The notes: a model not told the origin generated them from the letters alone. A stretch of 64,000 nt of DNA from Candidatus Helarchaeota archaeon (GCA_019058315.1 JAHPZH010000003.1:716451-780450), one strand, 5' to 3'; numbered from the stretch's first letter, positions 5,323 to 45,561 are shown. Program-made: numbers and translations.

Positions 5323-5435
5323 ATTTCTCTTCCTTTTATTTCGCTAATAAAATTCTTTTTATCAAATTTTAAACAATTATTCTTAAATTAAAGAATTGTT
5401 CCTTAAAAAACAGATTACTTTTCAAGGTTTCAAAT

Positions 5436-5705: not shown

Positions 5706-5900
5706 ATGAACTACCATTCAGCAAGCTGAATGGTATTCGTCCCGAATTTGTCATCATACTCCTTGCGGAGTCGGAGGGACTGGCTGGTCCACGCAGCCCT
5801 TTGCCGAACATCTCAGAGACCTCTTGATGTAAGGCACTGTGTCAAAGTTCGTGAATTGTCGGGAGACTTTGCCCCGCTTTTATCCGTATTAAAGGCACCA
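5690..5900 (-). ncRNA. Predicted TnpB omega-RNA (reRNA); 5' boundary approximate
   Basis: GC-richer segment overlapping the tnpB 3' end and ending in the right-end hairpin. By the TnpB rule the guide is the flank, ACTATGAACAACAAGG. Confidence 0.6.
5706..5738 (-). repeat. IS200/IS605-type right-end hairpin
   Basis: TACCATTCAGC-AA-GCTGAATGGTA (5712-5735). The minus strand reads GAAT-hairpin-AGTTCAT, matching the guide/cleavage-site layout of IS608/ISDra2 right ends. Confidence 0.85.
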
Positions 5901-7216
5901 TTAAGCATGGCGGAGGCTGATAAATCCACATTATCCGCTGCCAACAATCTCACCTTCCGAACCATCGGAAAGTTCTTAACTGAAGGCACTTTTTTAAACT
6001 TTGACAGCAAATTTATATATCCTATTATTGTTTTTAACCCATTATTTATCTTATAAGCACCACTATACAAATCGATGAGCCCCTTTAGTGCAATGTTCAA
6101 TGAAGCATTTCTATCCCTATGATCGACATGACCACAATTGCTGCATTTAAACAATCTCTTATGTTTATGGGATTCTTTTTTAGTTTGGCAGAGCACACAG
6201 TTCTGGGAAGTATAGTGGGGACTCACGGCATAATTTGGATACCCGCGTATGAATGCTTTATACGTAATAAAATCTTGCAATTTTTTAAAACCCCAATGAT
6301 GGTACTTCAAATTATTCTTTTTACCCCAGTTTATATTATCCATAATATTTGTAAGATCTTCGAAAATAACCACAGGGTTTTGAAACTTCGAAATCCACTT
6401 AACTGCTACTTTGCTTGCGAGATGAAGGACATGATTTGTGATTTTTTGCTGCTTTCGCCCTATTTTTTTTATCATTGATTTATTGTTAACTTTTTGTAAT
6501 CTTTTTCGTATCTTAAAAAATTTATACCGTTGATAGACAAGGGGTGAAAAATCGATTATAAGTGATCCTAACACAACACCTCTGACATTCACGGCACTTA
6601 AAGCTACATTAGTCGTATTATTATCAATACCGATAAAAGTGTGATCCGTAGAACCATCAAATATCGGTTTTTTTCCTAAGTCCATATTAACAATCAAATA
6701 ATATTTTTTACCAATTTTCTTCAAATTTGCAGCCCCAAATTTTAGGGCTTCTGCAAGTCCCAGCTCGACTAATTTCATATGTCGCTCTGAACCTATAAAT
6801 TCCAAGATCAACCTTTCGTCCTTTCTCACACTAATTCTAACGCGATTTTTCGCTAAAATCTTATATCCTTCTTTATAATTGAGACGGGAAGTCATTAACC
6901 CATTCACAAGACTCGGTGGGCTTGCTCGTGGGTCCGTTTTTCGCTTTGCTAAATACGATTTTATCGATTCGCTAGTCACATCCCGGCAACATTGCCTAGT
7001 ATTTGCCAATATATTCGTTTTTACTTGACATTTCTCAAGAAAAGTTTTAGAATATCGACCGAGCTTGTTCCAATGCTCCAGATATTGGTTGTAGACCGCT
7101 CCAAACTCTCTCATAAGATCGTCCAATTGGTTTTTCACCTTTTTCGAGGTAACCAAAAGCTTGAATTTCAGCGCAATTATTAGGTTATCTTTTTTATTTT
7201 TACTATTCCATGGCAT
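5813..7216 (-). CDS. tnpB: TnpB RNA-guided endonuclease
   Basis: RuvC-I FIGID, RuvC-II IFEDL, YTSQxCxxC...CxxC Zn finger, RuvC-III HRDRNASLNI. Confidence 0.92.
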   Translation of the reverse strand: MPWNSKNKKDNLIIALKFKLLVTSKKVKNQLDDLMREFGAVYNQYLEHWNKLGRYSKTFLEKCQVKTNILANTRQCCRDVTSESIKSYLAKRKTDPRASPPSLVNGLMTSRLNYKEGYKILAKNRVRISVRKDERLILEFIGSERHMKLVELGLAEALKFGAANLKKIGKKYYLIVNMDLGKKPIFDGSTDHTFIGIDNNTTNVALSAVNVRGVVLGSLIIDFSPLVYQRYKFFKIRKRLQKVNNKSMIKKIGRKQQKITNHVLHLASKVAVKWISKFQNPVVIFEDLTNIMDNINWGKKNNLKYHHWGFKKLQDFITYKAFIRGYPNYAVSPHYTSQNCVLCQTKKESHKHKRLFKCSNCGHVDHRDRNASLNIALKGLIDLYSGAYKINNGLKTIIGYINLLSKFKKVPSVKNFPMVRKVRLLAADNVDLSASAMLNGAFNTDKSGAKSPDNSRTLTQCLTSRGL

Positions 7217-7497
7217 AACTTATTTATTATTCATTCATATATAAACCCCACTAATAATTTGGTTCAAAACAGACTTTTTCAAAACTTTATGACTATGAAC
7301 TTTAACATTCGCCGCTTTCCCCCGTTTCTCGACCTCATATCTGCTCTTAAATAAGCCTAGAGCCGGATTTGAGTCTAAAATCTTAAATTTATCATAAAGA
7401 AAAATGCATCAATTTTGCACTTTTTCGAAAGTGGTCTAAGAAAAAATTTAAATATTAGTCATCAAGCCCGACTACTACAAAATTTTTTCAAAAATTA

Positions 7498-10400
7498 ATG
7501 AAAATTTTGGAGTTGAAAAAGATGCCCGCAATGTCGTCATACTTTAATAAATTGAAATTACATCTAGAAAGGAATGATATTGAAGAAGATAAATTATATG
7601 AACATCAGAAAAGAGCTCACAAATTACTATTTGAGGGGTTTAATTTCTCAGCATTTGTTCCAACAGGTTTCGGAAAAACGGAAGACGCCCTTGCAGCTAT
7701 TGGACATGCCTTATATTGTAATTTGGTAGCGGTTTATCTTGTTCCCCGGGTGATGCTGCTCCACCAAAAAGCCAGACTATTGAAAACCTTCTTTAAGGGG
7801 GTAGCAAGGGTTATTGTCATCCAGGGGGATTTAAAACCTCATCCCAGGGAGTTGAAGGATCCATGGGGAAAGCTCATAATCGTAGCTACATTTGAAAGCT
7901 TCAGAGCTTTCCTATTTTCAGTCCAGAAAAGGCGATATTTTGATAGAAAAACGAATATCTTCGGTTCGGTAGTTATTGACGAAGTGCACATGCTCGGGGA
8001 TAGGACCCATGGACCTTCTCTTGAGACGATGCTGTATAAGTTGCACAAGGAACATGATTCTCAGTTTTGTTTTTTGAGTGGGAGTTTTGAAAAGAGCTCT
8101 GCTGATTGGTGGTGTAAAAGGTTCAACTGTAAATTAGAATACATGTCTCACGAAAGGGATTTTTATTGCTGGAATATTTACGCCGAGCAGTCTACTTTTA
8201 AATGGAAAGATGACAAGATCAAAGAATTATGCAATGAATTTTTAGAATTTCATATATCCCACGATATTCAGGATTTAGCAGAAATACGCCCCGGAAAGAT
8301 GGTGATTTTTATCAGTACTCGCAAAAGAACGGAAATTTATTGTAATAACGTTAAAAACTCCTTAGAATCGAGCAGACCGAACTATAAGGAACATTTTAAA
8401 TGCAGTTTTATTCATGCGGGCATGACATTGGAAGAAAGAAAACAAATTTTTGATGATTTTAACAGCGATAAAGGTGTTAGATTTCTTTTTTGTACAACAG
8501 TGATTGAAGTAGGTATCGATATAAAAAACATTGAAGTGGTCTTGATCGAAGATGCCCATAAATATTCAGCCATTAAAAGAACTCAAATGATTGGGAGGAT
8601 GAGGTTAAATCATGGAGTTGTCATAAATATGATTCCTCTATTTGCTAAACGCCGTTTTAAAAGATCTATCATATATGAGAAAACATATGCAGCGAAAAAG
8701 ATCTTACCTAGTGTAAATTTTGCACTGTTTAGCTGGTATTATTGGTTTTCTGGGAGAAAAAGAATATTTTGGAGTATAGAGTATCCTTCGGAAGAAAGTG
8801 AGAAAGATAGAACGATATTTCATTATTCTGATACAGAACCCATTAGAGGATATAAATTAGAAAAGATTACTAGCCGAATCGATCTTAGACATCTGCCTGA
8901 CCTAATCCTTGAATCGTTATTTCGAACCCAAAAGAGTTTATCACAAATAGAAGATCATTTAAAGAGCATAATGGGGGAGTATGTATTAGTAGATAGAAAT
9001 AAGAAAACGATCAAAAGGAAAATTCATGAATTCGTAGGTATGAAATATATAAGGTCTACTGGAAGCAAATTTAGTCTTACATATATTGGGGAGGCTATAG
9101 TGGAGGGACACTTACCATATTTTTTTGCTGATAGGATTCTAAGAACATTTGAGGTTTTTCCCGAGCTCCCTACTCGAGAAATAAAACTGTTAATTGGGGA
9201 ACTGGTCGCGATGAAAGAAGCTAGTTCCAAGAAGATGTGGGATGTAGAAATGTTCATTAAAAATTACAGTAAAGATCCGATTATATTTACCGAAAATCTT
9301 GAAAAATATAAAATTTTAAAAGGGGATGCGGAGGTTTATCGCCGTTGTGCTGCTTGGATAGCTAGCGCTATTTACCTACTCTATCGGGGATATCAATTTC
9401 ATAATTTTGTTGAAGAAATTCGAACTAACATCGAATGTATAAATTCTGTGTTGTTTTGGGCTAAATTTCATAGAAGAAACCTGGATTACCACCATGTGGC
9501 ACTAAAAGAGCCAAGGAAATTGTCTAAAAGAATTTGTAATAGAATAAATCGAATTATTAAAACGTTTCAAAAATCTGGGGTGAGGGTGAATCTGCAAAAA
9601 CCACCCATGTGGCCCTATCAGAAATATCATGATTCTAAAGGAGCTGCCGTTTTAAACAACAAGATTATTGAAGTATTAGGAGAATCTGATGATGAGGGAC
9701 TTACTATATTTGAAATGGCTCAAAAAATTAACTCTGACCCCGACTTCAAAAACACCCTTATTACAGAGTCCAGAATTGCAGGACGGTTGAAAAACAGCCT
9801 AGCATCACGGGTTGAGCGCATCAAGGTTTATACCAATACGGGGGCACCCCATTTTAGATATTACTTAAAGGGAAACCTGCCCGAGCAAAGCGAGTTCACA
9901 TGCGCAAATTGTAATAATTTTGAAAAAGACCCGGCTAAGCGAATTTCGACAGCGGGTACAGTTTATACCTGCCAAAAATTAGAGATGGCAGTAAACGCAA
10001 ATAACCCTTCGTGTGCTCATTTTGAGCCCTATGAAAATGAATCTAGGACGTTTGCTACTTTTCCATTCAAATGGAACATTGAAGTATGCCCCAAATGTAA
10101 TGCTAGAAAAACTATTAGAGTGCCTCAACATGGAGAAGCTACCATTTGTAAGCGCTGTAACGTCCTTGTTGAGCGAACGGACAACGGTACTTTTAGAGCG
10201 ACTACAAGGCATAAAGTCTCAGAAAATATTGTCCAAACTGACGATAAGGGGATGAAATATATTGAGACCGACCCGAATAAGAGGGTAGTTTATGTTCCAA
10301 CAGACCATACATTAACAACAGAATACATTCCCGAAGGAAATTATTATATAGTCAAAGTACGCGGACTTGGAATACGTTCTTTTTTAAAACAGGTCGCTGA

Positions 10401-19045: not shown

Positions 19046-19207
19046 ATGACGTATAAAATTGAATATTTTTATTTTGATTACAGTTTGGTATTAACGTGTT
19101 CATGTGGTAGAGTTTCTAAGCAATTCGGTTCGAACCATACCAATACGTTCAAGTGTTCGTGCGGATTAACATTTAAAGTGTTGCCAGAAGTAGTTAAAAT
19201 TAAATAA
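19046..19207 (+). CDS. 53-aa Zn-ribbon microprotein, copy 2
   Basis: Near-identical to 18481-18642 (CSCG...CSCG). Confidence 0.75.
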   Translation: MTYKIEYFYFDYSLVLTCSCGRVSKQFGSNHTNTFKCSCGLTFKVLPEVVKIK

Positions 19208-19319
19208 AAGGTTTATCTCAACAAAAAATTTAATAATTATAAACGACAATTTTTTAATCACAAGCTATTAGAGAGGGCATATTGTAATTGCGCTTTAAGA
19301 GCTTAAATTCTATTATTTC

Positions 19320-19892
19320 ATGAGGGTTAGAATGGATAGATCAAAATTTTTATTCTTAACAACTAAACACGGGAGACTTTCATTCGAAAGACCACCTAAG
19401 GGAATGAAAGATGTTATAATTGCAATTACCAGAAAAAATTTAGAGATAAAATCTAAAAAAACAGGAGAAATAAAGAAAATTCCTCTCAAACAGATAGAAA
19501 TGGCAGAAAAAATAGATAGTTCAAAAACTAGCTATGTAGGAACAGCCTTGTTTGGGACACCTCCGACTCAAGATAGAAAAATATACACAAAAATAATAGC
19601 TAAAAAAAGAAAACCTTTTTATATTACATTTATAAGTGGAATGTCTGGTTGGCAAGTGGATTTACACGATGAGTTCTATTCAATTTTGAAATCTAGAATT
19701 GATAAAATAGAAAAAGAAAGCGAATTACAAAAGTTAAAAGAATTGCAAAAACCCACCAATGTTTTTTATATAAATATTCCACCACAGACAAAATTAGCAG
19801 CTTTAAAATGTCCTTCATGCCAAGCACCATTAGAATATATGCCCCCTTGTAAATGTGAGCATTGTGGAGTCATGATTGAGTTAATGAAATAA
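19320..19892 (+). CDS. PH-like beta domain plus shared C-terminal Zn-ribbon tail
   Basis: Tail IPPQTKLAALKCPSCQAPLEYMPPCKCEHCGVMIELMK. The PH-like fold is an inference. Confidence 0.7.
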   Translation: MRVRMDRSKFLFLTTKHGRLSFERPPKGMKDVIIAITRKNLEIKSKKTGEIKKIPLKQIEMAEKIDSSKTSYVGTALFGTPPTQDRKIYTKIIAKKRKPFYITFISGMSGWQVDLHDEFYSILKSRIDKIEKESELQKLKELQKPTNVFYINIPPQTKLAALKCPSCQAPLEYMPPCKCEHCGVMIELMK

Positions 19893-19895
19893 AAA

Positions 19896-20048
19896 ATGGG
19901 ATCAAAGGGAATGTCTGAAATTACTCTATTTGAAGCAGCTCGACATTGTTATTATTCATTAGAACCTAAGGGAGATAAAATCGATGTCTTTCTCAAAATC
20001 ACTAAAAATGAGTTAAAAATTTGGGTTAAGGTGCTCGATAAAGATTAG
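19896..20048 (+). pseudogene. Truncated PH-like domain gene (50 aa)
   Basis: ITLFEAARHCYYSLEP...FLKITKNELKIW resembles the second domain of 56179-57039. Confidence 0.45.
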
Positions 20049-20104
20049 CCATAAGAGATTAAAGGTTAAATGTGAATGATAAAAATAAATGGGAGTAACA
20101 CACC

Positions 20105-20881
20105 TTGAAAGAATTTCTTGAACGATTGGAATGGATGAAAATAAACAAAATCAAAAATAATTCAGAAAAAAATGCACTAGTTGAGTTAAAAAATAGATAC
20201 GGATTACAAAATGAAGACTTTGAATTGGATAAAAGTGGTCATATAATAAAACTGAAAATAATCGGCAAGAAATTACATTTAATTCCAGAAATTTTAAGTG
20301 TCTTTTCCCAGTTACAAGATTTGAATCTTTCAAATAATGAAATTGTGAAAATAGAAAAGCTTGAAAATTTAACCCAATTAAAAGAATTAGACCTTAGTAA
20401 AAATCAGATAACAAAGATATCGGGTCTAGAAGACTTTACTAAGTTCCGAAAATTAGATCTTATGGGAAATCCTCTAGAGAAAGAAGATCAAGTTGTATAT
20501 AAAAAGGGAATAGCTACAGTAATTAAATATTGCCAAAAAAATAAAAGAATAGAGCTATTTAAAAAAAACTTACTTGATTATATTGCTCCTTATGATGAAA
20601 TGACATTTAAAAAAATAGCAGATCATTTCGAATTGGATGTGCTATTTGTTGAAAATGAGATTAAAAATATGTTAGAAAGTAAAAAAATTATTGGCAGATT
20701 GTTTCCTGATAAAATTATCTTAAGAGAATTAAGTCCGAAAATCGATCAGACTGTATATATAACAATTCCACCTAAAACAAAATTGACTGCCTTAAAATGT
20801 CCTTCTTGTCAAGCACCCCTAGAATACATACCTCCCTGTAAATGTGAGCATTGTGGGGTTATGATTGAATTAATGAAATAA
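20105..20881 (+). CDS. LRR plus PCI-like winged helix plus shared Zn-ribbon tail
   Basis: LxxLxLSxNxI repeats; 'YDEMTFKKIADHF..VENEIKNML..IIGRL'; same tail as 19320. Confidence 0.75.
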   Translation: MKEFLERLEWMKINKIKNNSEKNALVELKNRYGLQNEDFELDKSGHIIKLKIIGKKLHLIPEILSVFSQLQDLNLSNNEIVKIEKLENLTQLKELDLSKNQITKISGLEDFTKFRKLDLMGNPLEKEDQVVYKKGIATVIKYCQKNKRIELFKKNLLDYIAPYDEMTFKKIADHFELDVLFVENEIKNMLESKKIIGRLFPDKIILRELSPKIDQTVYITIPPKTKLTALKCPSCQAPLEYIPPCKCEHCGVMIELMK

Positions 20882-20978
20882 GAGAAGAAATTTTATGTTT
20901 AATACGGTTGGTACATAAATGATCCCCGTTGGCATCCTGAACAATGTTTAGATGATGAAAATATAGTAACTACATATA

Positions 20979-21092
20979 TTAACTTGTGCATGTGGTAGAG
21001 TATCCAAGCAATTAGGTTTGAACCATACAAATACATTCAAGTGTCCGTACGGGTTAACATATAAAGTGTTGCCGGAAGTAGTTAAAATTTAA
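20979..21092 (+). pseudogene. 5'-truncated third copy of the Zn-ribbon microgene
   Basis: LTCACGRVSKQLGLNHTNTFKCPYGLTYKVLPEVVKI*; in-frame stop upstream and a Cys->Tyr change. Confidence 0.75.
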
Positions 21093-21185
21093 TAATTATA
21101 CATATTAATAATAATTGATATATTAATTCAAAGATTATTTGAGGATCTTTTTTGAGGAGAAAATTATGAAATGGAGGTTTAAACC

Positions 21186-22172
21186 ATTACCGTAAGATCC
21201 GAAGATGTATTATTTCATTGTGAGAAACATGGCAGATTTACAAAGGAAATGACCTATTTTTATAGGATGATAGATTCAAGAATCTCAATAATTAATAAAA
21301 TTATTATAATTAGCCCGAAGAAGAGAAACCTTGGTGAAGTACGGATAGATATTGATAAAATCAAAACGATTAAGATGCATAAAGATAGCTTGAAAGGACC
21401 GGAACCATATTATGAAATTATTCTTGATAATAAAGAAAAATTTTTCATTACTTTTGCCTCTACATGGGGTTCTTCTACAAAAAATCTTCATAAACAATTT
21501 AAAGAAGTATTAAACCAGAAGTTAGGTATTTCTATAAAGCAAGGAATAGATAGAACTGGACCACCTGCATTTTCTTTTAAAATGGCTCCCAGAACGAGTT
21601 TAAAAGAAGAAAAACCATCATTATTTTTTGCTGAAAAACACGGTAGATATTCCGTGCAAAGACCACCAAAAGGATTAAAGGATTCATTTATAAAAATCAG
21701 CAAAGAGAATTTAACAATAGCAATAAAGATTTCTGGAGAGAGAATTAGAGTTCCACTTATAAATATAGATGTTGCTGAAAGAATCGATAGCTCTAAAACA
21801 AGTTATGTTGGCACAGCATTATTCGGAACTCCTCCTGTTCAACAAAGGAAAATTTATACTAAGATTATAACCAAAACGGGACAATCTTTCTATGTAACAT
21901 TTATAAGCGGAATGTCGGGTTGGCAAGTAGAACTACACGATGAATTTTATGCAATTTTAAGGTCACAGCTTGATAGAATTCAAAAGGAAAAAGAATTAGA
22001 AGAACTTAAGAAGATGCAGAAACCAACCAACGTATTTTACATAAATATCCCACCACAAACAAAATTATCTGCTCTAACAGCTTTAAAATGTCCTTCATGT
22101 CAAGCACCTTTGGAATATATGCCACCCTGTAAATGTGAGCATTGCGGGGTTATGATTGAATTAATGAAATAA
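21186..22172 (+). CDS. Tandem PH-like domains plus shared Zn-ribbon tail
   Basis: Second domain is very similar to 19320. Start extended from ATG 21249 to ATT 21186, which follows GGAGG and restores the 'FHCEKHGRFTK' motif. Confidence 0.7.
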   Translation: MTVRSEDVLFHCEKHGRFTKEMTYFYRMIDSRISIINKIIIISPKKRNLGEVRIDIDKIKTIKMHKDSLKGPEPYYEIILDNKEKFFITFASTWGSSTKNLHKQFKEVLNQKLGISIKQGIDRTGPPAFSFKMAPRTSLKEEKPSLFFAEKHGRYSVQRPPKGLKDSFIKISKENLTIAIKISGERIRVPLINIDVAERIDSSKTSYVGTALFGTPPVQQRKIYTKIITKTGQSFYVTFISGMSGWQVELHDEFYAILRSQLDRIQKEKELEELKKMQKPTNVFYINIPPQTKLSALTALKCPSCQAPLEYMPPCKCEHCGVMIELMK

Positions 22173-22196
22173 ATAGAAGTAGAATGAGGAAAAGAT

Positions 22197-23156: not shown

Positions 23157-23184
23157 TTAAATTGAAATGCAGTGAATGGTTAGC

Positions 23185-24915: not shown

Positions 24916-24923
24916 GGGATAAA

Positions 24924-25705: not shown

Positions 25706-25758
25706 TTTTTGCCACCATTTTATATCATTTTATATATATCCATTTCATTCTCTAAAGT

Positions 25759-27824: not shown

Positions 27825-27869
27825 TCAATTACTTTATCCTCTCTTTTTTTCCTAAAAAATTCTCTTCAT

Positions 27870-28523: not shown

Positions 28524-28695
28524 AAGAATCCCTTTTAATCTTATAATAAAAGAACTTGATTAGTTTCTAATATTTAAGAATTCCTACTTTTTGGTAGAAA
28601 TTTCCTTAAAGATAGTTGCTTGAAATTAATTACGATTTTGTAAGTTCCATAGAAATAAATTGCCTTCATTCAGTAATATTAATAGCTAAGAACAT

Positions 28696-29205
28696 CTATA
28701 TTTTATTTCCACATTTCATACAAAATTTTGAATTAGAAGGGATTTTTTCCCCACATTGAGGGCAGAAAATACCGTCTATGGAAGTTGCCGAAATTTTTGA
28801 ATTTAAGAAATCATAGATATCTTCTAATAAATTTATGTCAAAATTAGTCCACTTACTAAATACCGTTATAAAATGTTCAGTATCGTCTGTTTCTATAATT
28901 TTAATCCAAAATGCTCCATCCCACCAAGCTTTAGTTCCCCTAGCAAGACTTTTTGCTATTTTGGAACCAGTTCCTTCTCTCCATCTTATCTTTTTTAACT
29001 CTTTAATTTGTTTAATCGGTATTATTATATCATCATATTTTTTTTTCTTCGGTAAAATTGAAAGAAGATCATCTGTAATAGTTATTACTGAATCGAGTGC
29101 TCCTGATCCACAAAAAGTAAATGAACTTTTCCTTATTTTGCCTTCTTCATTTCTATACTTTCCATGTTTTTTTATATTAAATTCTTCCGTTTTTATCCAC
29201 CTCAT
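28696..29205 (-). CDS. PH-like domain plus C-terminal zinc ribbon
   Basis: KHG..R motif shared with 19320/21186; FCPQCG...FCMKCG. Confidence 0.7.
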   Translation of the reverse strand: MRWIKTEEFNIKKHGKYRNEEGKIRKSSFTFCGSGALDSVITITDDLLSILPKKKKYDDIIIPIKQIKELKKIRWREGTGSKIAKSLARGTKAWWDGAFWIKIIETDDTEHFITVFSKWTNFDINLLEDIYDFLNSKISATSIDGIFCPQCGEKIPSNSKFCMKCGNKI

Positions 29206-29337
29206 TTAAAAGTTGAAAAAAAATAGTGATTAATTATTTACTCCTCTTACTCACCATTCTTTTTGATAATATATTTTTTATTATGTTTTAAGTGATATTA
29301 ATAAATTTACTTTTTTCCATAGGAGAGTCGTCTATAT

Positions 29338-38800: not shown

Positions 38801-41800
38801 TTAAATTGCAAACGGCAAATTTAAAAGATCCCAAATAATCGTTTTATCTTCCCTATCATATATTATTGTATCTAATTTAGTGAAAACAGTGTGGCGGATC
38901 TTGTCCGTAATGGTCTCGTCCTCCACTATTTTCACTAAGAGGTCGAAAAGCACTTCCTTATCCACATCATCACAACATAGTGTGGATTTTATAAATTCAC
39001 ATATGTATTCTATAGTATCTTCTGATTTAACTGTTTTAACAAGGTTAAAGAATTTGTCATTTATTTCCTCCCATTTCAATTGTATATTGCTTAAAGTTCT
39101 ATAATATTCTTTTTGAAAAATATCATCAGTATCTTGAGCAAAATTCCAGATTATATGTCCTATCTTAATTTTTCTACTTAATTTAAGCAATGGAAAATAA
39201 ATTAGTGGATTTAGATCTTGTAATAAAATTGATACTAATTTGGAAGATTCTAGATTATCACCTTCTAAGAAATTTAACATAATCTCAAAAAATATATTTG
39301 AAACAATTTTGTTTAAAGGGTGGGTTAAATAAAATACAGATTTATTTTTTTTGTACTCAGTAATCAACCCATTATAAATCTGAGATAAATGGGTTTGTTC
39401 AATGACTCCAAGTGATAAAGCAATAAATAAAAATCTACCCATGTGAAATATATTAACCCTTTCTGGAAAAATATCCAATATTTTTTCAAATAAATTTTTA
39501 AATCTAGTTTTTAATTTAGCAGAATCATCTGAAAGTCTCTCAAAATAAAAAATAACATTCTCAGATAGTATGATTTGACTTTTAGAATGTTTAATCTCAT
39601 TCTCAATAATATCAAAAATTAGATTTGTTGTTTCCAAATTACTCTTAAATGTAATATTTGGGGATAAGTAATAATGAACAGCTGAAAAATTATGTTCTTC
39701 AAACCATTTATTTATCTTTAAAATAGAATTTAGATTAGAAAAATCTTTCATTAAAGGTGTGCAATCATATGTTAACCAAATTTTAAATTTCAATGGGTCT
39801 ATTTCTTTATTGATAATCCCTGACTCGATTAAATTATTTAATTCTTGAATATCCTCTTGAAATTTCCCAACATCCCTATATTTTTCAATTAAATTTTTTA
39901 AATCTTTATGTAAATTTTTTACATCCTCAACATTTACAAAAAATCCAAAAAGATATCTTATTTCTTCATTAAAAAATGAAAATTCCAGTGTTTCATAAAA
40001 TTTCGATAATTTTTGAAAAAGTTCTTCGTCGGTTGGATTGATCATCAATTCAAAGATGTTAACTAGATACTTTATTACGCTATTAGAATCGTTTGAATAA
40101 AAATCAATAAATTTTTCAATAAGATTTTGTTCTTGGTCAATTAATTTTTTAATTTCTGGATAAATTATATATGGTATTAATATTCTATAATGTTTAAAAT
40201 TTCTAAATCCACGAAATATAATTACTGCCTTATTAAGTAAATAAATAAGGTGTACAACACTCCAAAGCAAGAGATTTTTTTTCAAGTTTTGATTATTCTT
40301 TACTTTTTCTTTTAAATATCTCCTTAAATCGTCATATTCTTCAATCGACCATCTTTTAGTTAGGTAAGACCCCTTAATTAAATTCAAAACTATTAATAAA
40401 TATCCGTTAATAGAAATACCAGTGTCAATATAATACTTGACATTGAGAATTGAAAGATTTATTTGCGATGCAACTTTTTCTAATCCAATATTTATGATTG
40501 AATTTTCTAAAAATTCTATTACCCACTTTTCATTTATATTATTTAAAATACCATTTTTAAGTGTTATAAACATTAAGTTCTTTAATTCTGAGTTCTGCCT
40601 TATTACTTCTAATATTTTTTCATCGAATCCAAACATATGAATATAAAATTCAATTAATCTAGATAATATAATCCCTTTATTTGATTCTATTTGTCTGTCT
40701 AACCAATCCTTAATAATTTGCCTATTTTCAAAATTTTTAAATGCTTCAGAAACCCACTTTATATCCCAATAAGGTATTTTCATATGGAGTAAAGATAATC
40801 CATATTCAATTACCTCTTTTTCAATAATAGAATTTTCAAATATTTTATCTCCTATCATACTAATGATTATTATTGTTCCCCTTCTTAATATATAATCAAA
40901 GTCTGTATCATCAATTTTCTTACAAATTTCAAATATTTTACCAATTTTATCAGGAAATTTTCTATTAATCCTCCCTGCTAGAAAAAAGGCAACGTTCATC
41001 CAATGTCTTTTTAACACAATTCCTTCAAATCTGTTGAAAATTTCATTTTCATTTCTTTTTATATCGCATAAATAAGCTGCTGCCAAAAATTCTCTAATTA
41101 CTGATATTGTAAAACCAAACTTTTCTGCTTTTGGACTCTCAATTAAGACTAATCGCTCACATGATTCTATAAATATCCGTTCCACTAATTCTTGCAAATC
41201 CTCTTCTCTTATTTTGTCTTCTTTTAAAACAAGATAGTAGTAACGGCAATATTTTTTAATTTGCTCTTTAAATTCTTCACTTCCCATAAGAGCAGACGAG
41301 CTTTGTTCTTCCATTCTTTTATGTAAAATAAATCCAAGGTATTTATGAAAACCTAAAATCAGTTCTTTATCTGTTGTTAATAAGAAAGACCGCAACTCTT
41401 TTTCGCGATCATAGACAGCATCAAGATAACGTTGATATAATTCTTCACGACGGGCTGGTGGCGAACCTTCTTTCAAGATAATAATTAATAAAATTGAAGT
41501 TTGATAAGGATTTTTAATAAGTAGATTTACGTTCTTATTTTTTAGACACTCTTCAAATTTTTCTTGTATTCTACTAATTTCCTCTGAATTTAATTTTAAT
41601 GCTCTAATCCATCTTCCTAAAAATTTTCTGGCTTTTTTTTCATCAAAAGGTTTTATTTCTAATTGAACTAAATTTAAAAAATTTAATTCTTCTGAGTAAC
41701 TATGAGGTCTAGAACTAAAAATAATTCTTAGATCACCATTTAATTGATTCCTTATAATATCAATAAAATTTCTGATATTTTCAAAAGTTTTCTCTCTTAA

Positions 41801-43234
41801 ATTGGAGTCAGGAATTTCATCTAACCCGTCCAATAATATTAAAACCTTATTTTTCTTAATAAATTCATGAATATCGTCATATGTCCTCGTAGTTACATTA
41901 TAAATAAAATCTCTCAGATAATGAAATAAATTATAATTAAATTTTCTATTTGACAACTCTTCTGCATAATCTTTAAGAAATATTAAAAAGGGAATTCGAT
42001 AAGGCAATTGACTATTTATTTGGACTTCATCTATATCTTCTAGTAGCTCAGACAATTTTCCAATAATATTAGCACAATATAATTGATTAGTGAATTGAAG
42101 TAATGTAGATTTTCCTGATGCAGGACCTCCCAGAACTAATATATCGGGATATTCTTCATTTAATAAAAATTTATGGGCTAATTTTTCTGGAATTCTCGGA
42201 AATTTTTCTGGAAATTTACCTTTTACATCCAAATCGATAAAAATCTTTTCTATTCTTATATTAGTATTTACTTTTCCACTTAAATAATATAATTTCGTAT
42301 TTTGGTTTGTATTATAACACTCTCGACAAAATATCTTAGTTGTGTCATCTATTTCTATATCATAAATTTGTTCTTCTGAGTCTTGATTTTTTATCAACCA
42401 TTCTATAAATTCAAAACAGAATTTTCCGACTGCCCTCGATGCTTCAATTTTATTTTCATCTTTATAGGGCGTTCCTCTTGAATCCGGATCGGCATTATCC
42501 ATTACGATACGGATATCTACCCATTCTATATTTCGGTAATTTTCTAAAACTTGAGCTGCACCAGCTACTTCCATTTCTATTCCATATAACTTCCATTCTA
42601 TATGTTTTAACGCATCTATTGGATCTTTTAATATATCTTCCCCTTTTTTGGGAGTATCTGCATCTAGTATGTTACCAGAAATTATTTTGCCATTATTCAG
42701 ACATTTAAATTTATTTTGAGGTCTTTCCTTAAGATGAGAAAAAAAATCTCCAGAGAGTTTTTCTCCCCAATTTTTAGATTCAAAAAATCTTTCTACTAAA
42801 TCTACTAACATTTTAGTGGGTCTATAAGGTTCACTATCCATTTTTTCTCCATTATCTGTCTTCTTAACCAAATCATAAGTAATTATTTGTTCAGGTACTA
42901 TCATATCTCCGATAAATACCTTCTTTGAATAAAAACCACCACAAACACCTATAATAAATACAAATCTTGGTTGCCATATTTTTAAGGCTTCTGTTAACAG
43001 ATTTTGTGTTTTTCTAAGTCCTGATTTGATTGGACATATCAGAACAATTGTAAATTCTTTATTTTCTAATTTGATTTTTCCAATATCATAAGGATGAATA
43101 AAATCGGTAAATTTTGGAATCACATTCGTAATTTTATTTGGTAAAAATTCTAGGATTGCATTACGTTCCTCTGTTGTTGGTGCAATAATAATTGCTTCTA
43201 CTTTTATTGGCAAATTTTTCTTTTTATCATCCAT
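38801..43234 (-). CDS. Nucleoside phosphorylase (PNP/MTAN-like)-NACHT STAND NTPase with helical sensor region
   Basis: PNP: GVCGG, GD, EME, IR..D.AD. NACHT: GGPASGKST, LLDGLDE, SSRP. Confidence 0.88.
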   Translation of the reverse strand: MDDKKKNLPIKVEAIIIAPTTEERNAILEFLPNKITNVIPKFTDFIHPYDIGKIKLENKEFTIVLICPIKSGLRKTQNLLTEALKIWQPRFVFIIGVCGGFYSKKVFIGDMIVPEQIITYDLVKKTDNGEKMDSEPYRPTKMLVDLVERFFESKNWGEKLSGDFFSHLKERPQNKFKCLNNGKIISGNILDADTPKKGEDILKDPIDALKHIEWKLYGIEMEVAGAAQVLENYRNIEWVDIRIVMDNADPDSRGTPYKDENKIEASRAVGKFCFEFIEWLIKNQDSEEQIYDIEIDDTTKIFCRECYNTNQNTKLYYLSGKVNTNIRIEKIFIDLDVKGKFPEKFPRIPEKLAHKFLLNEEYPDILVLGGPASGKSTLLQFTNQLYCANIIGKLSELLEDIDEVQINSQLPYRIPFLIFLKDYAEELSNRKFNYNLFHYLRDFIYNVTTRTYDDIHEFIKKNKVLILLDGLDEIPDSNLREKTFENIRNFIDIIRNQLNGDLRIIFSSRPHSYSEELNFLNLVQLEIKPFDEKKARKFLGRWIRALKLNSEEISRIQEKFEECLKNKNVNLLIKNPYQTSILLIIILKEGSPPARREELYQRYLDAVYDREKELRSFLLTTDKELILGFHKYLGFILHKRMEEQSSSALMGSEEFKEQIKKYCRYYYLVLKEDKIREEDLQELVERIFIESCERLVLIESPKAEKFGFTISVIREFLAAAYLCDIKRNENEIFNRFEGIVLKRHWMNVAFFLAGRINRKFPDKIGKIFEICKKIDDTDFDYILRRGTIIIISMIGDKIFENSIIEKEVIEYGLSLLHMKIPYWDIKWVSEAFKNFENRQIIKDWLDRQIESNKGIILSRLIEFYIHMFGFDEKILEVIRQNSELKNLMFITLKNGILNNINEKWVIEFLENSIINIGLEKVASQINLSILNVKYYIDTGISINGYLLIVLNLIKGSYLTKRWSIEEYDDLRRYLKEKVKNNQNLKKNLLLWSVVHLIYLLNKAVIIFRGFRNFKHYRILIPYIIYPEIKKLIDQEQNLIEKFIDFYSNDSNSVIKYLVNIFELMINPTDEELFQKLSKFYETLEFSFFNEEIRYLFGFFVNVEDVKNLHKDLKNLIEKYRDVGKFQEDIQELNNLIESGIINKEIDPLKFKIWLTYDCTPLMKDFSNLNSILKINKWFEEHNFSAVHYYLSPNITFKSNLETTNLIFDIIENEIKHSKSQIILSENVIFYFERLSDDSAKLKTRFKNLFEKILDIFPERVNIFHMGRFLFIALSLGVIEQTHLSQIYNGLITEYKKNKSVFYLTHPLNKIVSNIFFEIMLNFLEGDNLESSKLVSILLQDLNPLIYFPLLKLSRKIKIGHIIWNFAQDTDDIFQKEYYRTLSNIQLKWEEINDKFFNLVKTVKSEDTIEYICEFIKSTLCCDDVDKEVLFDLLVKIVEDETITDKIRHTVFTKLDTIIYDREDKTIIWDLLNLPFAI

Positions 43235-43509
43235 TTTAGCATTCTCCTATCCCTAATAAGAAATATCGAATGTATTAAATTTAATCTTACATTCTAAAAT
43301 ACTAATTAATGTCAACACATATTATTCCAATCTCTCCATAAATATATCTCCTTTTAAGATCGTTTTAAAATCCTCCACATGTAAATTTAAATTATTATTA
43401 TTTGATTCGAGATATGTTATCTTTAATGTAATATTCTTTTTTCTAATGATTCAGTGATACAAAAGAAACGCGCTTAGTTTATTTATTACTTATATCCTTT
43501 TTTTGAGAA

Positions 43510-43689
43510 TTATGATAATATTTCTTTAAAATCTGTTTTATGATTTGCTAAATATTCAATTATTGCATGTCTCATAATATCTGATTTTGAGGGAAATTTC
43601 TTACTCTCAACTAATCTCTCCAATTGTTCGTTAATATGTCTCACTACATGAACAGTGACTATTATCGTTTCTTCTGAAATATCAGGTAT
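43510..43689 (-). CDS. CopG/RHH transcriptional regulator (absent from ORF track; no upstream ATG/GTG/TTG start)
   Basis: IVTVHVVRHINEQLERLVESKKFPSKSDIMRHAIIEYL; frame open 43698-43510. Confidence 0.7.
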   Translation of the reverse strand: MPDISEETIIVTVHVVRHINEQLERLVESKKFPSKSDIMRHAIIEYLANHKTDFKEILS

Positions 43690-43740
43690 ATGACCACGTT
43701 AATAAATCGGGCTCAAAAAATGGAGAAACATCATTCAATT

Positions 43741-44442
43741 TTAAATTGAAAGATTATTTTCAATATTTACTTCTAAATATTTCAAAGGTAAGATTTCATA
43801 CCTGCCATTTTTACTAAAATTTAATTGGCTCATTCCCCTAAATTTCGTGATATAAGCACCAAAGATACGAAGAATCATATTTGGTTTAATATTCTGAATT
43901 TTCTCATCCCAAAGAGCACATTTAATACACCCAGTCTCATCTCCCAACACTGCGTTAGCAACCTTGTGCATTTTTCCGTCCTTTTCTAATCTTACATGCT
44001 TGAGATTATTGACATCCAATACTTTAACTTTTTCTAAATTAATGTTAGTGGTCTTGTGTTTTAGACGGGATATTTTTACGAATTTAAATCCCGGATAATC
44101 GTCTCTTTTCACAAGATTTTCATCTTCTCCATCATCTAATATTGACCATTTACCGTATTTTCCGATATTCAAAAATAATGTTCCATTAAACTCACTGACA
44201 TACCCATTTTCTATAAGAAGGCTATTGCCAAGAGCGATTTTATCTATTACAAACCCCCATACCGTTAAAATCATTGTTCCGGTCTCATCTCTAACCTTAT
44301 ATTCTGCAACTCGTTGTTTCTTATTATTCTTTTTGATTCGAACCATTCGTTCTGATACAAGTTCTAAGATTTTTACTTTAATATTAACACCCCTAGATTC
44401 AGAATTTAAATCTTGAATTTTAATCAGGTCCAAGATACTCAA
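43741..44442 (-). CDS. RPA/SSB-like protein with two OB folds
   Basis: Two copies of 'DETG...WxxxI...I.G.Y...F.G...L..KxG'. Confidence 0.88.
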   Translation of the reverse strand: MSILDLIKIQDLNSESRGVNIKVKILELVSERMVRIKKNNKKQRVAEYKVRDETGTMILTVWGFVIDKIALGNSLLIENGYVSEFNGTLFLNIGKYGKWSILDDGEDENLVKRDDYPGFKFVKISRLKHKTTNINLEKVKVLDVNNLKHVRLEKDGKMHKVANAVLGDETGCIKCALWDEKIQNIKPNMILRIFGAYITKFRGMSQLNFSKNGRYEILPLKYLEVNIENNLSI

Positions 44443-45479
44443 CCCCTTATTTCATCCTGTATAAACCCAGCACCCAATAAATAGACGGAGCAAGATTTTC
44501 GAATGATATCATTACGTTCACCAACAATAAATAATCGTTTATTTGAATCGAATTCATCAAACCTCATCTCAATGCGGGTGACTTCAGCAATCAATTTATA
44601 AAGTGTTGGTACTGTAATGAAATGGTCAGTTTCATTACATAAAAAGACCGTAGCGTTATGTTCCCTTGCAACTTCAACCAAGCGGTCGATTATTTTATTA
44701 TAAATGTCTTTTTCAATAAATAAGTGAATATTTTTCAGATTGAACGTAGTCGTTATGCTGTCGATAAAGATGAGGTTTGCATCAGTGTCACTAATAGTAG
44801 AACTTAAATCATATTTAACAAATGAGTATAGTTCTTCAATTGAGGATATTGAAATCAAAATAACATTGTTTATAATTTCAGTATGGTCAATTCCAAATCT
44901 TTTCGACATTTCAATAATGTGGTCTTCGCTGAAATTTCTTCCGGTGTCCATATAGATTACTGAACTTTTGGGTACCTCATCTTTATGTGAAATAAATGTG
45001 TTACAAATTAGTTGATGAAATAGGCTTGTCTTCCCAACTTTTCTTAGCCCATAAATTTCATAAAGCATCTGTGTAGAAAAGCCATTCTCAAGAACCGCAT
45101 CGAGTTTTTTACTTCCGCTTGAGAAGAAATGGGGTTTTTTTAAAGTCTGTACCTTTTCTTTGTATTCACCAAAGGGCTTTTCATTAATTACAGAATTTGA
45201 ATTTGAGTCTATAAATTTTTGAGTTTGCTTATTGAGCTTATTTTGGGCTTTTTCGTGAATTTCCCAAGCTTTGGCACCTGAAAGTCTGTATTTACGGAAT
45301 ATTGCAACTATCTCAGCACCTAAACGATTTGCTAAATCCATTACTGTAAAAATTTTTTCTCTTGTCAATATGTCTTTAATTGTCACAATTCCATCAGCGG
45401 CTAAGGCATCGATTAACTCCTCGTTAGTTGAGATATCTTCAATTTTATCATTAACACCAGCTATTTTATCTAAACTCAT
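44439..45479 (-). CDS. RadA paralogue (start probably ATG 45479)
   Basis: SGSKKLDAVL.NG, EIYGLRKVGKT, YMDTG, IFIDSI. Confidence 0.85.
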   Translation of the reverse strand: MSLDKIAGVNDKIEDISTNEELIDALAADGIVTIKDILTREKIFTVMDLANRLGAEIVAIFRKYRLSGAKAWEIHEKAQNKLNKQTQKFIDSNSNSVINEKPFGEYKEKVQTLKKPHFFSSGSKKLDAVLENGFSTQMLYEIYGLRKVGKTSLFHQLICNTFISHKDEVPKSSVIYMDTGRNFSEDHIIEMSKRFGIDHTEIINNVILISISSIEELYSFVKYDLSSTISDTDANLIFIDSITTTFNLKNIHLFIEKDIYNKIIDRLVEVAREHNATVFLCNETDHFITVPTLYKLIAEVTRIEMRFDEFDSNKRLFIVGERNDIIRKSCSVYLLGAGFIQDEIRG

Positions 45480-45530
45480 AATCAATAGTTTCACCTTTTA
45501 ATAACAGAATTTTATCAAGCTAGAGAATCT

Positions 45531-45550
45531 CTTTATAAATCTTTTTGTCG
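45531..45550 (-). promoter_or_regulatory. BRE/TATA promoter of the radA-like operon
   Basis: Minus strand CGACAAAAAGA-TTTATAAA about 55 nt upstream of the start. Confidence 0.5.
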
Positions 45551-45561
45551 TGCCAAGGTTA

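What the first reader, a model, noticed from the sequence alone, without database searches (positions are those of the whole stretch)
5706..45560. Candidate new mobile system: TnpB-capped, Cas1-based element with its own recombination-repair kit
Seen: one end carries TnpB with omega-RNA and a divergent helicase-Cas1-DHH fusion; the other end carries RadA and RPA; a LigD-type AEP lies inside. No PolB, TnpA, tyrosine/serine recombinase, CRISPR array or capsid was recognised. Established: casposons pair Cas1 with PolB and TIRs, and divergent Cas1 proteins on putative mobile elements have been reported in Asgard archaea (I cannot check whether this architecture is among them). Inference: a self-contained cut (TnpB), resect/unwind (DHH, helicase), invade (RadA/RPA), fill (AEP) and integrate (Cas1) homing element carrying defence cargo.
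Basis: partly seen in the sequence, partly recalled or inferred. Interest (0 to 1): 0.93.

Follow-up and report, generated by a model that had tools for sequence, protein, structure and literature searches.

The report
40-kb Cas1–TnpB element with recombination genes
A 39.9-kb block of foreign DNA sits inside a broken metabolic gene of a probable Asgard archaeon; it starts with an RNA-guided nuclease gene (TnpB) and a giant helicase–Cas1 fusion gene and ends with a RadA-like/SSB pair, so it is a large, cargo-carrying form of a barely studied Cas1-based transposon class.

Summary
Window 5706-45570 (39,865 bp) is one insertion block inside an ADP-forming acyl-CoA synthetase (ACS) gene. ACS codons 1-91 end at 5705 and the last 23 codons resume at 45571. 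A related organism has the intact gene followed by the same right-flank genes.

- **Left end:** tnpB with its omega-RNA region, head-to-head with a 2147-aa protein. This protein is an SF2 helicase–wHTH/Zn–Cas1 (catalytic E/H/D..D kept)–DHH/DHHA1–Rad51-like fusion.
- **Right end:** a two-OB SSB and a very divergent RadA paralogue.
- **Both ends recur at other sites in this genome.** The right-end homology with a decayed copy stops at exactly 45570.
- **Interior:** variable cargo, including Shedu, HEPN, Schlafen/AlbA_2, PNP-NACHT, PRTase-CE and a weak AEP.

The Cas1–TnpB pairing itself is published (Makarova 2020; Altae-Tran 2023, 'Cas1H-Asgard'). I did not find these points described:
- the 40-kb cargo-bearing form with mapped ends;
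- the recurrent RadA-like partner, seen in 4 own loci, in one other genome 12.6 kb away, and directly adjacent on one independent metagenome contig;
- the Rad51-like domain inside the Cas1 protein;
- a Hop2/Mnd1-like neighbour.

RadA/SSB and TnpB are not universal in the family, and AEP is not a core gene. The mechanism is inference only. Other first-reader notes of this scan flag paralogous copies elsewhere in this genome.

The parts
5433..5705 (+). Left flank: N-terminal 91 codons of an ADP-forming acyl-CoA synthetase (the target gene), cut off exactly at 5705
   Evidence: tblastn with paralogues and with the full-length relative P0054 (aa 1-91, 74% identity) stops at 5705-5708. An independent Logan contig, L044, crosses the junction (2660-5768, 100% identity).
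5706..5740 (-). Left terminus. On the tnpB strand it reads as a hairpin, CCATTCA..TGAATGG, followed by GTAGTTCAT at the very end. It is more variable than the adjacent scaffold.
   Evidence: Three copies begin their shared sequence here: the window, C11:835920 and C8:87. The same motif lies at the tnpB 3' end of the divergent C6 element. Identity between copies is 86% here against 90% next door.
5741..5960 (-). Predicted omega-RNA scaffold, overlapping the 3' end of tnpB
   Evidence: 91% identity between copies against 80% for the rest of tnpB. Fold z-score -2.1. No Rfam family matched.
5813..7216 (-). tnpB (467 aa), with RuvC and Zn-finger residues kept
   Evidence: dN/dS 0.15 against copy 2.
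7217..7497 (.). Divergent intergenic region between tnpB and the giant gene
   Evidence: The head-to-head arrangement is conserved in 7 loci. This region is 71% identical between copies.
7498..13941 (+). Giant fusion protein of 2147 aa. Domain order: SF2 helicase (aa 35-368), wHTH plus Cys clusters, Cas1 (aa ~940-1330, nt ~10315-11488), DHH/DHHA1 (aa 1370-1737), Rad51-like domain with a degenerate P-loop (aa 1760-1997), and a C-terminal beta domain.
   Evidence: dN/dS 0.19 against copy 2.
13967..14503 (-). Winged-helix plus coiled-coil protein (178 aa), possibly Hop2/Mnd1-like. It is also found next to the C7 giant paralogue (55% identity).
   Evidence: Pfam TBPIP/Hop2 WH is a best or near-best weak hit in both paralogues. 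The Foldseek top hit is Giardia Hop2-Mnd1 (E 1.6e-4), and the Hop2 WH domain matches with TM 0.83 and 28% identity. The model pLDDT is only 71.
14504..43740 (.). Variable cargo: HEPN (17393-17905, minus), LRR-PCI (20105-20881), Shedu SduA (24304-24915), Schlafen/AlbA_2 (25759-26805, minus), AEP-like (30764-31681), a 1203-aa PRTase-CE protein (34592-38203), a 1477-aa PNP-NACHT protein (38801-43234, minus), and many unknown ORFs
   Evidence: Only patches are shared with other copies: C2:1-14647, C11:1-10592 and C1:20.5-25.2k.
43741..44442 (-). SSB-like protein with two OB folds (233 aa)
   Evidence: It is 96% identical to the copy at C2:13145-13843, with dS 0.05.
44439..45494 (-). RadA-like paralogue (351 aa). 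It keeps the HhH-type N-terminus and Walker A/B motifs, but the L2 loop region is shortened.
   Evidence: Relatives lie downstream of Cas1 giants in C7, C1, C2b and G307:C5, and directly adjacent in L072.
45495..45570 (.). Right terminal segment, ending ..CAAGGTTATCCGAAGAC
   Evidence: Homology with the decayed copy at C2:377252 stops at 45570. ACS homology resumes at 45571.
45571..45642 (+). Right flank: the last 23 codons plus stop of the same ACS gene
   Evidence: blastn to L067:3425-3486 gives 80.6% identity. tblastn with P0054 aa 470-490 gives 76% identity, E 3.5e-5.

Best explanation
Window 5706-45570 is an integrated, cargo-carrying member of the Asgard 'aCas1-TnpB' transposon class.

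**Structure.** It has two conserved arms around replaceable cargo that consists mostly of defence genes.
- Left arm: tnpB with its omega-RNA, the giant helicase-Cas1-DHH-Rad51-like protein, and a Hop2-like winged-helix protein.
- Right arm: an SSB and a RadA-like recombinase.

**Proposed working (inferred, not shown).**
1. The Cas1 domain, whose active site is intact, joins the element's ends to target DNA.
2. The fused helicase and the RecJ-like DHH nuclease unwind and resect DNA.
3. TnpB, guided by an RNA that ends at the element's left terminus, cuts element-free alleles.
4. The break is repaired from an element-bearing chromosome copy. This step is helped by the element's own RadA-like protein, its SSB, the Hop2-like factor and the Rad51-like docking domain of the giant protein.

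**What is shown.** The boundaries, the multi-copy state, the conserved gene pairing, intact catalytic motifs and purifying selection.

**What is inferred.** Every enzymatic step.
For: **Empty-site synteny**
- A related contig, L067, carries the full-length ACS followed by a 79-aa gene, an MBL gene and a 151-aa gene. That order equals the window's right flank.
- In the window, ACS aa 1-91 end at 5705 and aa 470-492 resume at 45571. No ACS pieces lie in between.

**Ends recur elsewhere**
- The left end is shared with C11:835920 and C8:87, and its motif also occurs in the divergent C6 element.
- The right end is shared with the decayed copy C2b, and that homology stops at exactly 45570.
- C2b keeps tnpB, giant and RadA-like fragments in the same order and orientation.

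**Gene pairing**
- All 5 Cas1 genes of this genome are giant fusions. Three of them lie head-to-head with 3 of the 6 tnpB genes.
- The same pairing occurs in G003:C38, G006:C87, G006:C14 and L071.

**RadA-like partner**
- A RadA-like gene lies 11-31 kb downstream of, and convergent to, the giant gene in 4 of the 4 assessable own loci.
- In G307:C5 it lies 12.6 kb away (there on the same strand as the giant gene), and in L072 it is immediately adjacent.

**Function retained**
- dN/dS is 0.19 for the giant gene and 0.15 for tnpB at dS ~0.7-0.8.
- The Cas1 E/H/D..D residues are invariant.
- The DHH and Rad51 folds are confirmed.

**Literature**
- aCas1 has been proposed as the transposase of TnpB-bearing Asgard transposons (PMC10691335).
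Against: - No terminal inverted or direct repeats and no target-site duplication were found.
- 1.13 kb of the target gene is missing, which is not expected of simple Cas1 integration or of homing. More than one event is therefore possible.
- The empty-site relative is distant (74% aa identity in ACS), so the block could have built up stepwise.
- Homologue L069 is followed directly by shikimate-pathway genes. C7, C1 and L072 show no tnpB. The long form is therefore not obligatory.
- The arms have different histories. SSB dS is 0.05 against C2a, while giant dS is 0.70 against copy 2. The link between the C11 end and C2a is unproven, and mosaic recombination is implied.
- The assembly is a 12-contig MAG with 6.6% contamination, and several contigs break inside these elements.
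Confidence: 0.68

Rival explanations
1. Composite locus. An 8.2-kb aCas1-TnpB transposon (5706 to ~13950) landed at the edge of a pre-existing defence/repair island. That island had itself grown inside the ACS gene. RadA-like/SSB and the cargo are not part of the transposon.
For: - In the decayed copy C2b, homology to the window stops at the giant gene's stop codon (13934), and the interior is unrelated.
- L069 has housekeeping genes right after the giant gene.
- Cargo differs between copies.
- The published description concerns the aCas1-TnpB locus only.
- The 1.13-kb target deletion suggests more than one event.
Against: - Both block boundaries fall in the same gene, with no ACS fragment between them.
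- The RadA-like end is a shared breakpoint with another copy that also carries tnpB and giant remnants in the same order.
- RadA-like genes accompany Cas1 giants in 4 own loci, in G307:C5, and adjacently in L072.
- The giant protein itself carries a Rad51-like domain that matches the RadA-like profile.
Confidence: 0.2
2. An integrated plasmid or provirus of an unknown type. It would replicate episomally using the AEP-like primase and helicase, and would use the Cas1 fusion only as its integrase. TnpB would be a passenger or a retention module.
For: - The size is ~40 kb.
- It carries an AEP-like gene.
- Many ORFs have no family, including 15681-16652, 22197-23156, 27870-28523, 31651-32826 and 32935-34203.
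- G+C content is uneven, from 0.24 to 0.38.
Against: - No capsid, terminase, portal or PHROG family was found among ten unannotated ORFs.
- AEP is missing from the colinear copy C2a.
- No circular junction could be examined.
- Multiple diverged intragenomic copies fit a transposon better.
Confidence: 0.09
3. Not mobile. The region would be a chromosomal recombination/defence island copied by segmental duplication, or an assembly artefact of a mixed-strain MAG.
For: - MAG contamination is 6.6%.
- Many contig ends fall within related sequence.
- Related strains in other runs cover the flank but barely cover tnpB.
Against: - The left junction is reproduced by an independent Logan contig.
- Copies have different flanks and sharp common end points.
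- The copies differ by dS ~0.7, so they are not strain variants.
- A target gene is disrupted.
Confidence: 0.03

Closest known systems
Asgard aCas1-TnpB transposons ('Cas1H-Asgard-1/-2', Altae-Tran et al. 2023 PNAS, PMC10691335; Cas1 homologues of Makarova et al. 2020 CRISPR J)
   Same: - A highly diverged Cas1, fused to a helicase, is paired with TnpB.
- There is no CRISPR array and no cas2.
- A variable segment lies next to a conserved GTTCA-type motif downstream of tnpB.
- The TnpBs fall into two deep groups, as published.
   Different: - The unit mapped here is 39.9 kb.
- It carries ~29 kb of cargo.
- It has a distal RadA-like/SSB arm.
- It has asymmetric ends without detectable repeats.
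- 1.13 kb of the target gene was replaced.
- None of these points appears in the text I could read. Makarova 2020 and the PNAS supplements were not available.
Casposons
   Same: A Cas1 homologue serves as the presumed integrase of a self-contained mobile element that carries other DNA-metabolism genes.
   Different: - There is no PolB inside the element. The PolB at the C6 locus lies outside the terminus.
- No TIRs and no TSD were found.
- Cas1 is one domain of a 2147-aa fusion.
- An RNA-guided nuclease is present.
IS200/IS605-IS1341 TnpB elements
   Same: tnpB lies at one end with the omega-RNA running to the terminus, the ends are asymmetric, and a subterminal hairpin is present.
   Different: There is no Y1 or serine TnpA, and the element is 20-30 times larger and carries cargo.
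CRISPR-associated transposons (Tn7-like CAST) and other guided transposons
   Same: In concept, a transposase or integrase is coupled to an RNA-guided protein.
   Different: The proteins are unrelated. TnpB here appears nuclease-active, and no TnsABC/TniQ genes are present.
Eukaryotic RAD51 paralogue and Hop2-Mnd1 accessory systems
   Same: The giant's domain superposes best on RAD51 paralogues (BCDX2, XRCC3). The neighbouring wHTH coiled-coil protein resembles Hop2/Mnd1.
   Different: The resemblance is at fold level only, with low sequence identity (14-21% for the Rad51-like domain; 16% overall and 28% in the 65-residue WH domain for the Hop2-like protein). The P-loop is degenerate, and no interaction has been shown.

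Membership tests
Asgard aCas1-TnpB transposon (Cas1H-Asgard) | Diverged Cas1 fused to a helicase | tested here: met
   Pfam DEAD/Helicase_C plus Cas1, above cut-off in the window protein and the three more distant paralogues scanned (copy 2 by six-frame search). A profile search recovers canonical Cas1 at E 1e-4 to 1e-6.
Asgard aCas1-TnpB transposon (Cas1H-Asgard) | tnpB adjacent to the Cas1 gene | tested here: met
   The two genes lie head-to-head with a 281-bp spacer. The arrangement is repeated in copy 2, C6, G003, G006 (twice) and L071.
Asgard aCas1-TnpB transposon (Cas1H-Asgard) | Locus flanked by repeats | tested here: not met
   No TIR or direct repeat was found at 5706/13950 or at 5706/45570. 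The paper says 'often', so this feature is not strictly defining.
Asgard aCas1-TnpB transposon (Cas1H-Asgard) | Variable segment downstream of tnpB bounded by a conserved GTTCACTCA-like motif | tested here: inconclusive
   A ~20-nt variable hairpin is followed by a conserved GTAGTTCAT at the terminus. Only 4 copies were available, and the motif is similar to the published one but not identical.
Asgard aCas1-TnpB transposon (Cas1H-Asgard) | Asgard archaeal host | not testable with these tools
The host is inferred from eukaryote-like domains (LRR, PCI, small GTPases, UQ_con in relatives) and from the published range of this family.
Casposon | Family B DNA polymerase inside the element | tested here: not met
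   No PolB was found among the ORFs of 100 aa or more that were scanned between 5706 and 45570. The PolB at the C6 locus lies beyond the terminal motif.
Casposon | Terminal inverted repeats and a target-site duplication | tested here: not met
   Target DNA is deleted rather than duplicated.
IS200/IS605 | Y1 (TnpA) or serine transposase | tested here: not met
   Neither was found in the Pfam scans of the element's ORFs of 100 aa or more (three overlapping ORFs were not scanned).
CRISPR adaptation module | cas2 and a CRISPR array next to cas1 | tested here: not met
   No array was found, no Cas2 family was hit, and the genome has no other Cas1.
RadA recombinase (equivalog) | Score above the NCBIfam RadA cut-off | tested here: not met
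   76 bits against a cut-off of 259. Three genes elsewhere in the genome score 270-333 bits on Pfam Rad51. The protein is a Rad51-superfamily paralogue only.
DHH/DHHA1 phosphoesterase (RecJ-like) | DHH motifs I-III, the DHHA1 GH..A.G motif, and the fold | tested here: met
   Motifs DFDG, ADFP, DHH and GHKKATG are present. The fold scores Z 18.2, 15.3, 13.8 and 12.5 to DHH, RecJ2, RecJ-Cdc45 and RecJ.
Hop2/Mnd1 | N-terminal winged helix plus long coiled coils, with family-level sequence similarity | tested here: inconclusive
   Pfam TBPIP scores 22.0 bits against a cut-off of 22.8. The Foldseek top hit is 4y66 at E 1.6e-4, and 2mh2 matches with TM 0.83. MarR-type wHTH proteins score almost as well, and the model was built from only 2 sequences.

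The most novel reading that the evidence does not exclude
A Cas1-integrase transposon that carries tens of kilobases of cargo and brings its own homologous-recombination machinery. That machinery would comprise a RadA-like recombinase, an SSB, a Hop2/Mnd1-like factor and a Rad51-paralogue-like domain built into the transposase. Together with an RNA-guided nuclease, the element would spread or persist by RNA-guided cutting followed by self-supplied strand invasion. This would be a homing mechanism distinct from casposons, IS605 elements and CASTs.
Probability: 0.3. Interest if true: 0.9.

Novelty: new variant of a known kind. Interest (0 to 1): 0.72.

Why it matters
Cas1 outside CRISPR is known to act as a transposase only in casposons. 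The Asgard helicase-Cas1/TnpB elements have been noted in two surveys but have never been delimited or dissected. This report gives three things.

1. **A concrete element to work with.** Both ends are mapped to the nucleotide, the target gene is identified, and an empty-site comparator is available. Integration and TnpB-guided cleavage can therefore be tested directly.
2. **A repeated link to recombination proteins.** The Cas1 fusion is associated again and again with a private RadA-like recombinase, and it contains a Rad51-paralogue-like domain itself. This points to a coupling of integrase chemistry with strand exchange that has not been described.
3. **A vehicle for defence genes.** In the lineage closest to eukaryotes, the element moves Shedu, NACHT, Schlafen, HEPN and PRTase genes. 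It also carries a possible archaeal Hop2/Mnd1-like protein.

Tried and rejected
- **Word-based homologue search** with the Cas1-DHH region found nothing. Pattern-based search for related loci in genome contigs also found nothing. The family was reached only by full HMM searches.
- **phmmer of giant segments against PDB sequences** gave nothing useful.
- **Empty site by DNA in 30 relatives:** they are too distant, and only single-gene matches appeared.
- **Exact-protein look-ups** of MBL, RadA-like and TnpB were not on record.
- **TIR, TSD and right-end motif searches** found nothing beyond the C2b copy.
- **Guide test:** the ~20-nt variable terminal segments were searched against the genome and the empty-site contig. 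They matched only themselves and the related terminal copies.
- **GTAGTTCAT motif** is not conserved in the tnpB 3' regions of G003 and G006.
- **Complex prediction** of the giant's Rad51-like domain with the RadA-like protein gave no verdict, score 0.00.
- **Sequencing runs:** no RNA holder was listed.
- **Read laying:**
  - Only Logan contigs were available. Contigs of a ~97%-identical strain from another study (runs X2, X4) cover the left flank and stop or diverge at 5707, with 16-18 unaligned letters.
  - Those letters were not shown, so it is undecided whether the site is empty or holds a variant end.
  - Zero depth over 5769-6702 in those low-coverage runs is not evidence of absence.
- **Joining C2:377251 to C8:88** to rebuild a second empty site: the junction is intergenic, so this was uninformative.
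- **Aloposons** (Wu 2022) were considered and rejected. They have tandem 3,000-6,000-aa genes, integrate at tRNA sites, and the paper does not mention Cas1 or TnpB.
- **Literature access:** Makarova 2020 and the PNAS supplements could not be read.

Full report
**What is in the window.** The DNA is about 30% G+C with no tRNA genes. It lies at C11:716451-780450 of a 5.8-Mb, 12-contig MAG. Outside roughly 5.7-45.6 kb the genes are ordinary metabolism: SDR, MFS and HAD on the left, and MBL, glyoxalases and a B12-binding protein on the right. Inside that span, the ORFs of 100 aa or more were scanned (three overlapping ORFs were not).

- **tnpB (5813-7216, minus strand):** TNB domain E 3.5e-18. NCBIfam guided_TnpB scores 113.8 bits against a cut-off of 100. 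RuvC-II E, the Zn finger and RuvC-III D align to solved TnpB/Cas12f.
- **Giant gene (7498-13941, plus strand):** a 2147-aa protein, head-to-head with tnpB, carrying DEAD/Helicase_C and a Cas1 match above the Pfam cut-off.
- **A wHTH coiled-coil gene (13967-14503, minus strand).**
- **About 29 kb of mixed genes:** HEPN, LRR-PCI, Shedu, Schlafen/AlbA_2, a weak AEP, a 1203-aa PRTase-CE protein and a 1477-aa PNP-NACHT protein.
- **Right end:** a two-OB SSB (43741-44442, minus) and a Rad51-family gene (44439-45494, minus).
- **Not found:** PolB, TnpA or a tyrosine/serine recombinase; a repeat array; PHROG families among ten unannotated ORFs; any Rfam family.

**The giant protein.**
- The genome has five Cas1 homologues and all are giant fusions. 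No CRISPR-type cas1 is present.
- In an alignment of the five, Cas1 residues E1101, H1183, D1213 and D1216 are invariant, within the motifs LRxxEG, NYLY, GxLHYR and FDFxDxY.
- A profile of the Zn-Cas1-DHH region found only 51 clusters among 1.8 billion representatives. Canonical ~330-aa Cas1 proteins appear at E 1e-4 to 1e-6. Only 6 of 400 sampled genomes of the phylum have a match. The family is real, is Cas1-related, and is rare.
- An AlphaFold model of aa 1340-2147 (pLDDT 72.6) shows two folds. Residues 1370-1737 form a DHH/DHHA1 fold, with Z 18.2 to a DHH domain, 15.3 to RecJ2, 13.8 to RecJ-Cdc45 and 12.5 to RecJ. Residues 1760-1997 form a Rad51 fold, with Z ~22 to BCDX2, Rad51, DMC1 and XRCC3 and Foldseek E 5e-13.
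- The P-loop of the Rad51-like domain is degenerate in sequence.

**Is tnpB an unrelated IS?** No.
- The genome has six tnpB genes. Three of them sit head-to-head with Cas1 giants: the window, a second copy at C11:836030 (80% aa identity), and a divergent pair on C6 (27% and 34% aa identity).
- The same arrangement occurs in G003:C38, G006:C87, G006:C14 and the ENA contig L071.
- The associated TnpBs fall into two deep groups. This matches the published 'Cas1H-Asgard-1/-2'.
- Altae-Tran et al. 2023 already propose this Asgard Cas1 as the transposase of such elements. They also note a variable segment next to a GTTCACTCA motif downstream of tnpB (PMC10691335).
- The pairing is therefore known. 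I could not read Makarova 2020 or the supplements.

**Boundaries.**
- *Left.* Window 5701-13804 aligns at 81% to C11:835914-843982, which is a contig end. C8:1-87 matches 5706-5793. The three copies become alike exactly at 5706 and have unrelated flanks.
- On the tnpB strand the terminus reads as a hairpin, CCATTCA..TGAATGG, followed by GTAGTTCAT. The same motif ends the divergent C6 element, which places the PolB gene at that locus outside the element.
- The 220 nt inside the terminus are 91% conserved between copies, against 80% for the rest of tnpB. This fits an omega-RNA.
- The left flank is the first 91 codons of an acyl-CoA synthetase (ACS) gene, cut at 5705. An independent Logan contig crosses this junction.
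- *Right.* A decayed copy near the end of contig C2 holds tnpB, giant and RadA-like fragments in the same order and orientation. It shares the RadA-like 5' region and 75 bp upstream with the window, and that homology stops at 45570.
- *Empty site.* The closest full-length ACS in the protein collection is P0054, at 74% identity. It lies on contig L067 in the order ACS, 79-aa gene, MBL, 151-aa gene. That is the window's right flank: a 74-aa gene, MBL and a 150-aa gene, at 65%, 62% and ~50% aa identity.
- The last 62 nt of that ACS gene match window 45571-45632 at 80.6% identity. P0054 aa 470-490 align there, aa 1-91 align at 5436-5708, and nothing of ACS lies in between.
- Window 5706-45570 (39,865 bp) is therefore one block inserted in ACS, and it replaces codons ~92-469. 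Two independent lines of evidence give the same right end.

**Is the RadA-like arm part of the system?**
- The gene is not the cell's RadA. It scores 75 bits on Pfam Rad51, while three other genes score 270-333 bits. It scores 76 bits against the RadA equivalog cut-off of 259. It keeps Walker A and B motifs but has a shortened L2 region.
- Divergent RadA-like paralogues lie downstream of, and convergent to, the Cas1 giant in the window (31 kb), C7 (11 kb), C1 (13 kb) and the decayed C2 copy.
- With 12 Rad51-family genes in 5.8 Mb, one falls in a given 35-kb stretch about 7% of the time by my rough estimate. The loci are related by descent, so this is not a formal test.
- Outside this genome, G307:C5 has a RadA-like gene 12.6 kb from its shorter helicase-Cas1 gene, there on the same strand.
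- On JGI contig L072 a 330-aa HHH_5/Rad51 gene sits immediately after, and convergent to, a 2040-aa homologue. It scores 188 bits to my RadA-like profile.
- That profile also detects the giants' own Rad51-like domains.
- The wHTH coiled-coil gene accompanies the C7 giant as well, at 55% identity. Its best structural match is Hop2-Mnd1, but this evidence is weak.

**Limits.**
- Homologue L069 is followed at once by shikimate-pathway genes. C7, C1 and L072 show no tnpB. C11:631-641k has RadA-like and SSB genes without a Cas1 giant. Short forms and partial forms of the element therefore exist.
- The AEP-like gene is missing from the colinear copy at C2:1-14.7k, so it is cargo.
- That copy's SSB differs from the window's by dS 0.05, while the giants of the window and copy 2 differ by dS 0.70. 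The arms are therefore mosaic, and the join between the C11 end and the C2 start is unproven.
- No TIR or TSD was found, and 1.13 kb of target DNA is missing.

**Selection.** dN/dS is 0.19 for the giant gene and 0.15 for tnpB at dS 0.7-0.8. Both ORFs are intact, so both genes have been kept functional since the copies diverged.

**Reading.**
- The best-supported view, at about 0.68, is a long, cargo-bearing member of the aCas1-TnpB transposon class. It has a conserved left arm (tnpB, giant gene, wHTH gene), a conserved right arm (SSB, RadA-like gene), and exchangeable defence cargo.
- The mechanism, in which Cas1 joins ends, the helicase and DHH process DNA, TnpB cuts empty alleles and the element's own recombinase set repairs the break from a filled copy, is inference from domain content and from known TnpB biology in IS605-type elements.
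- The main rival, at about 0.2, is an 8-kb transposon abutting an independently grown island.
- I class the finding as a new variant of a known kind.

Noticed in passing
window 13967-14503 (-); paralogue at G000:C7:30373-30894: A 178-aa protein with a winged helix and long coiled coils. Its best Pfam (TBPIP/Hop2) and Foldseek (Giardia Hop2-Mnd1; Hop2 WH domain, TM 0.83, 28% identity) matches are to a eukaryotic meiotic recombinase cofactor. It may be an archaeal Hop2/Mnd1-like protein, but the evidence is weak.
   Followed up: partly
window 18472-18642, 19037-19207, 20977-21100; also C1:20559-20728, C2:3029-3191, C11:983-1157, C11:586148-586345: A ~120-230-nt sequence, 86-95% identical between copies. 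In the window it lies upstream of paralogous genes that share a C-terminal domain (19320-19892, 21249-22172). It could be a conserved 5' region, a small RNA or a miniature repeat.
   Followed up: no
window 1330-2811 (-), 57396-59843 (+): Members of a very large family of BNR/Ig-like repeat proteins. Dozens of copies across the genome are 65-75% identical at the nucleotide level. Some lie beside Cas1-giant loci (C1:400200, C2:379118, C11:635497).
   Followed up: no
G000:C6:300168-302759: A family B DNA polymerase gene starts ~100 bp beyond the terminal motif of the C6 tnpB/Cas1 element. It lies just outside the element, so it does not make that element casposon-like.
   Followed up: partly
G000:C1:395417-399736: A 1439-aa helicase-Cas1-LRR fusion without DHH or Rad51 domains and without tnpB. 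A RadA-like fusion gene (651 aa) lies 13 kb downstream. Shorter 1323-1363-aa relatives with LRR neighbours occur in genomes G307 and G308.
   Followed up: partly
window 34592-38203 (+) and 38801-43234 (-): Two very large candidate defence proteins. One is 1203 aa with a C-terminal PRTase-CE / PRTase_III-A-like domain. The other is a 1477-aa PNP_UDP phosphorylase-NACHT fusion. They lie in the lowest-G+C part of the element (0.24-0.26).
   Followed up: no
window 43741-44442 vs C2:13145-13843; window 7498-13938 vs C11:837712-843981: The element's arms have very different divergence between copies: SSB dS 0.05 against giant dS 0.70. In addition, the RadA-like N-terminus (aa 1-76) is replaced in the C2 copy. 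This implies recent recombination between elements.
   Followed up: partly
window 16850-16960: A 9-nt tandem repeat, AAAAATTTA, present in about 12 copies in an intergenic region of the cargo.
   Followed up: no
contig ends C11:843982, C11:1, C2:1, C2:384600, C8:1, C7:1, C10:200306: Many contig ends of this MAG fall inside sequence related to this element. The true copy number is therefore probably higher than what was assembled.
   Followed up: no
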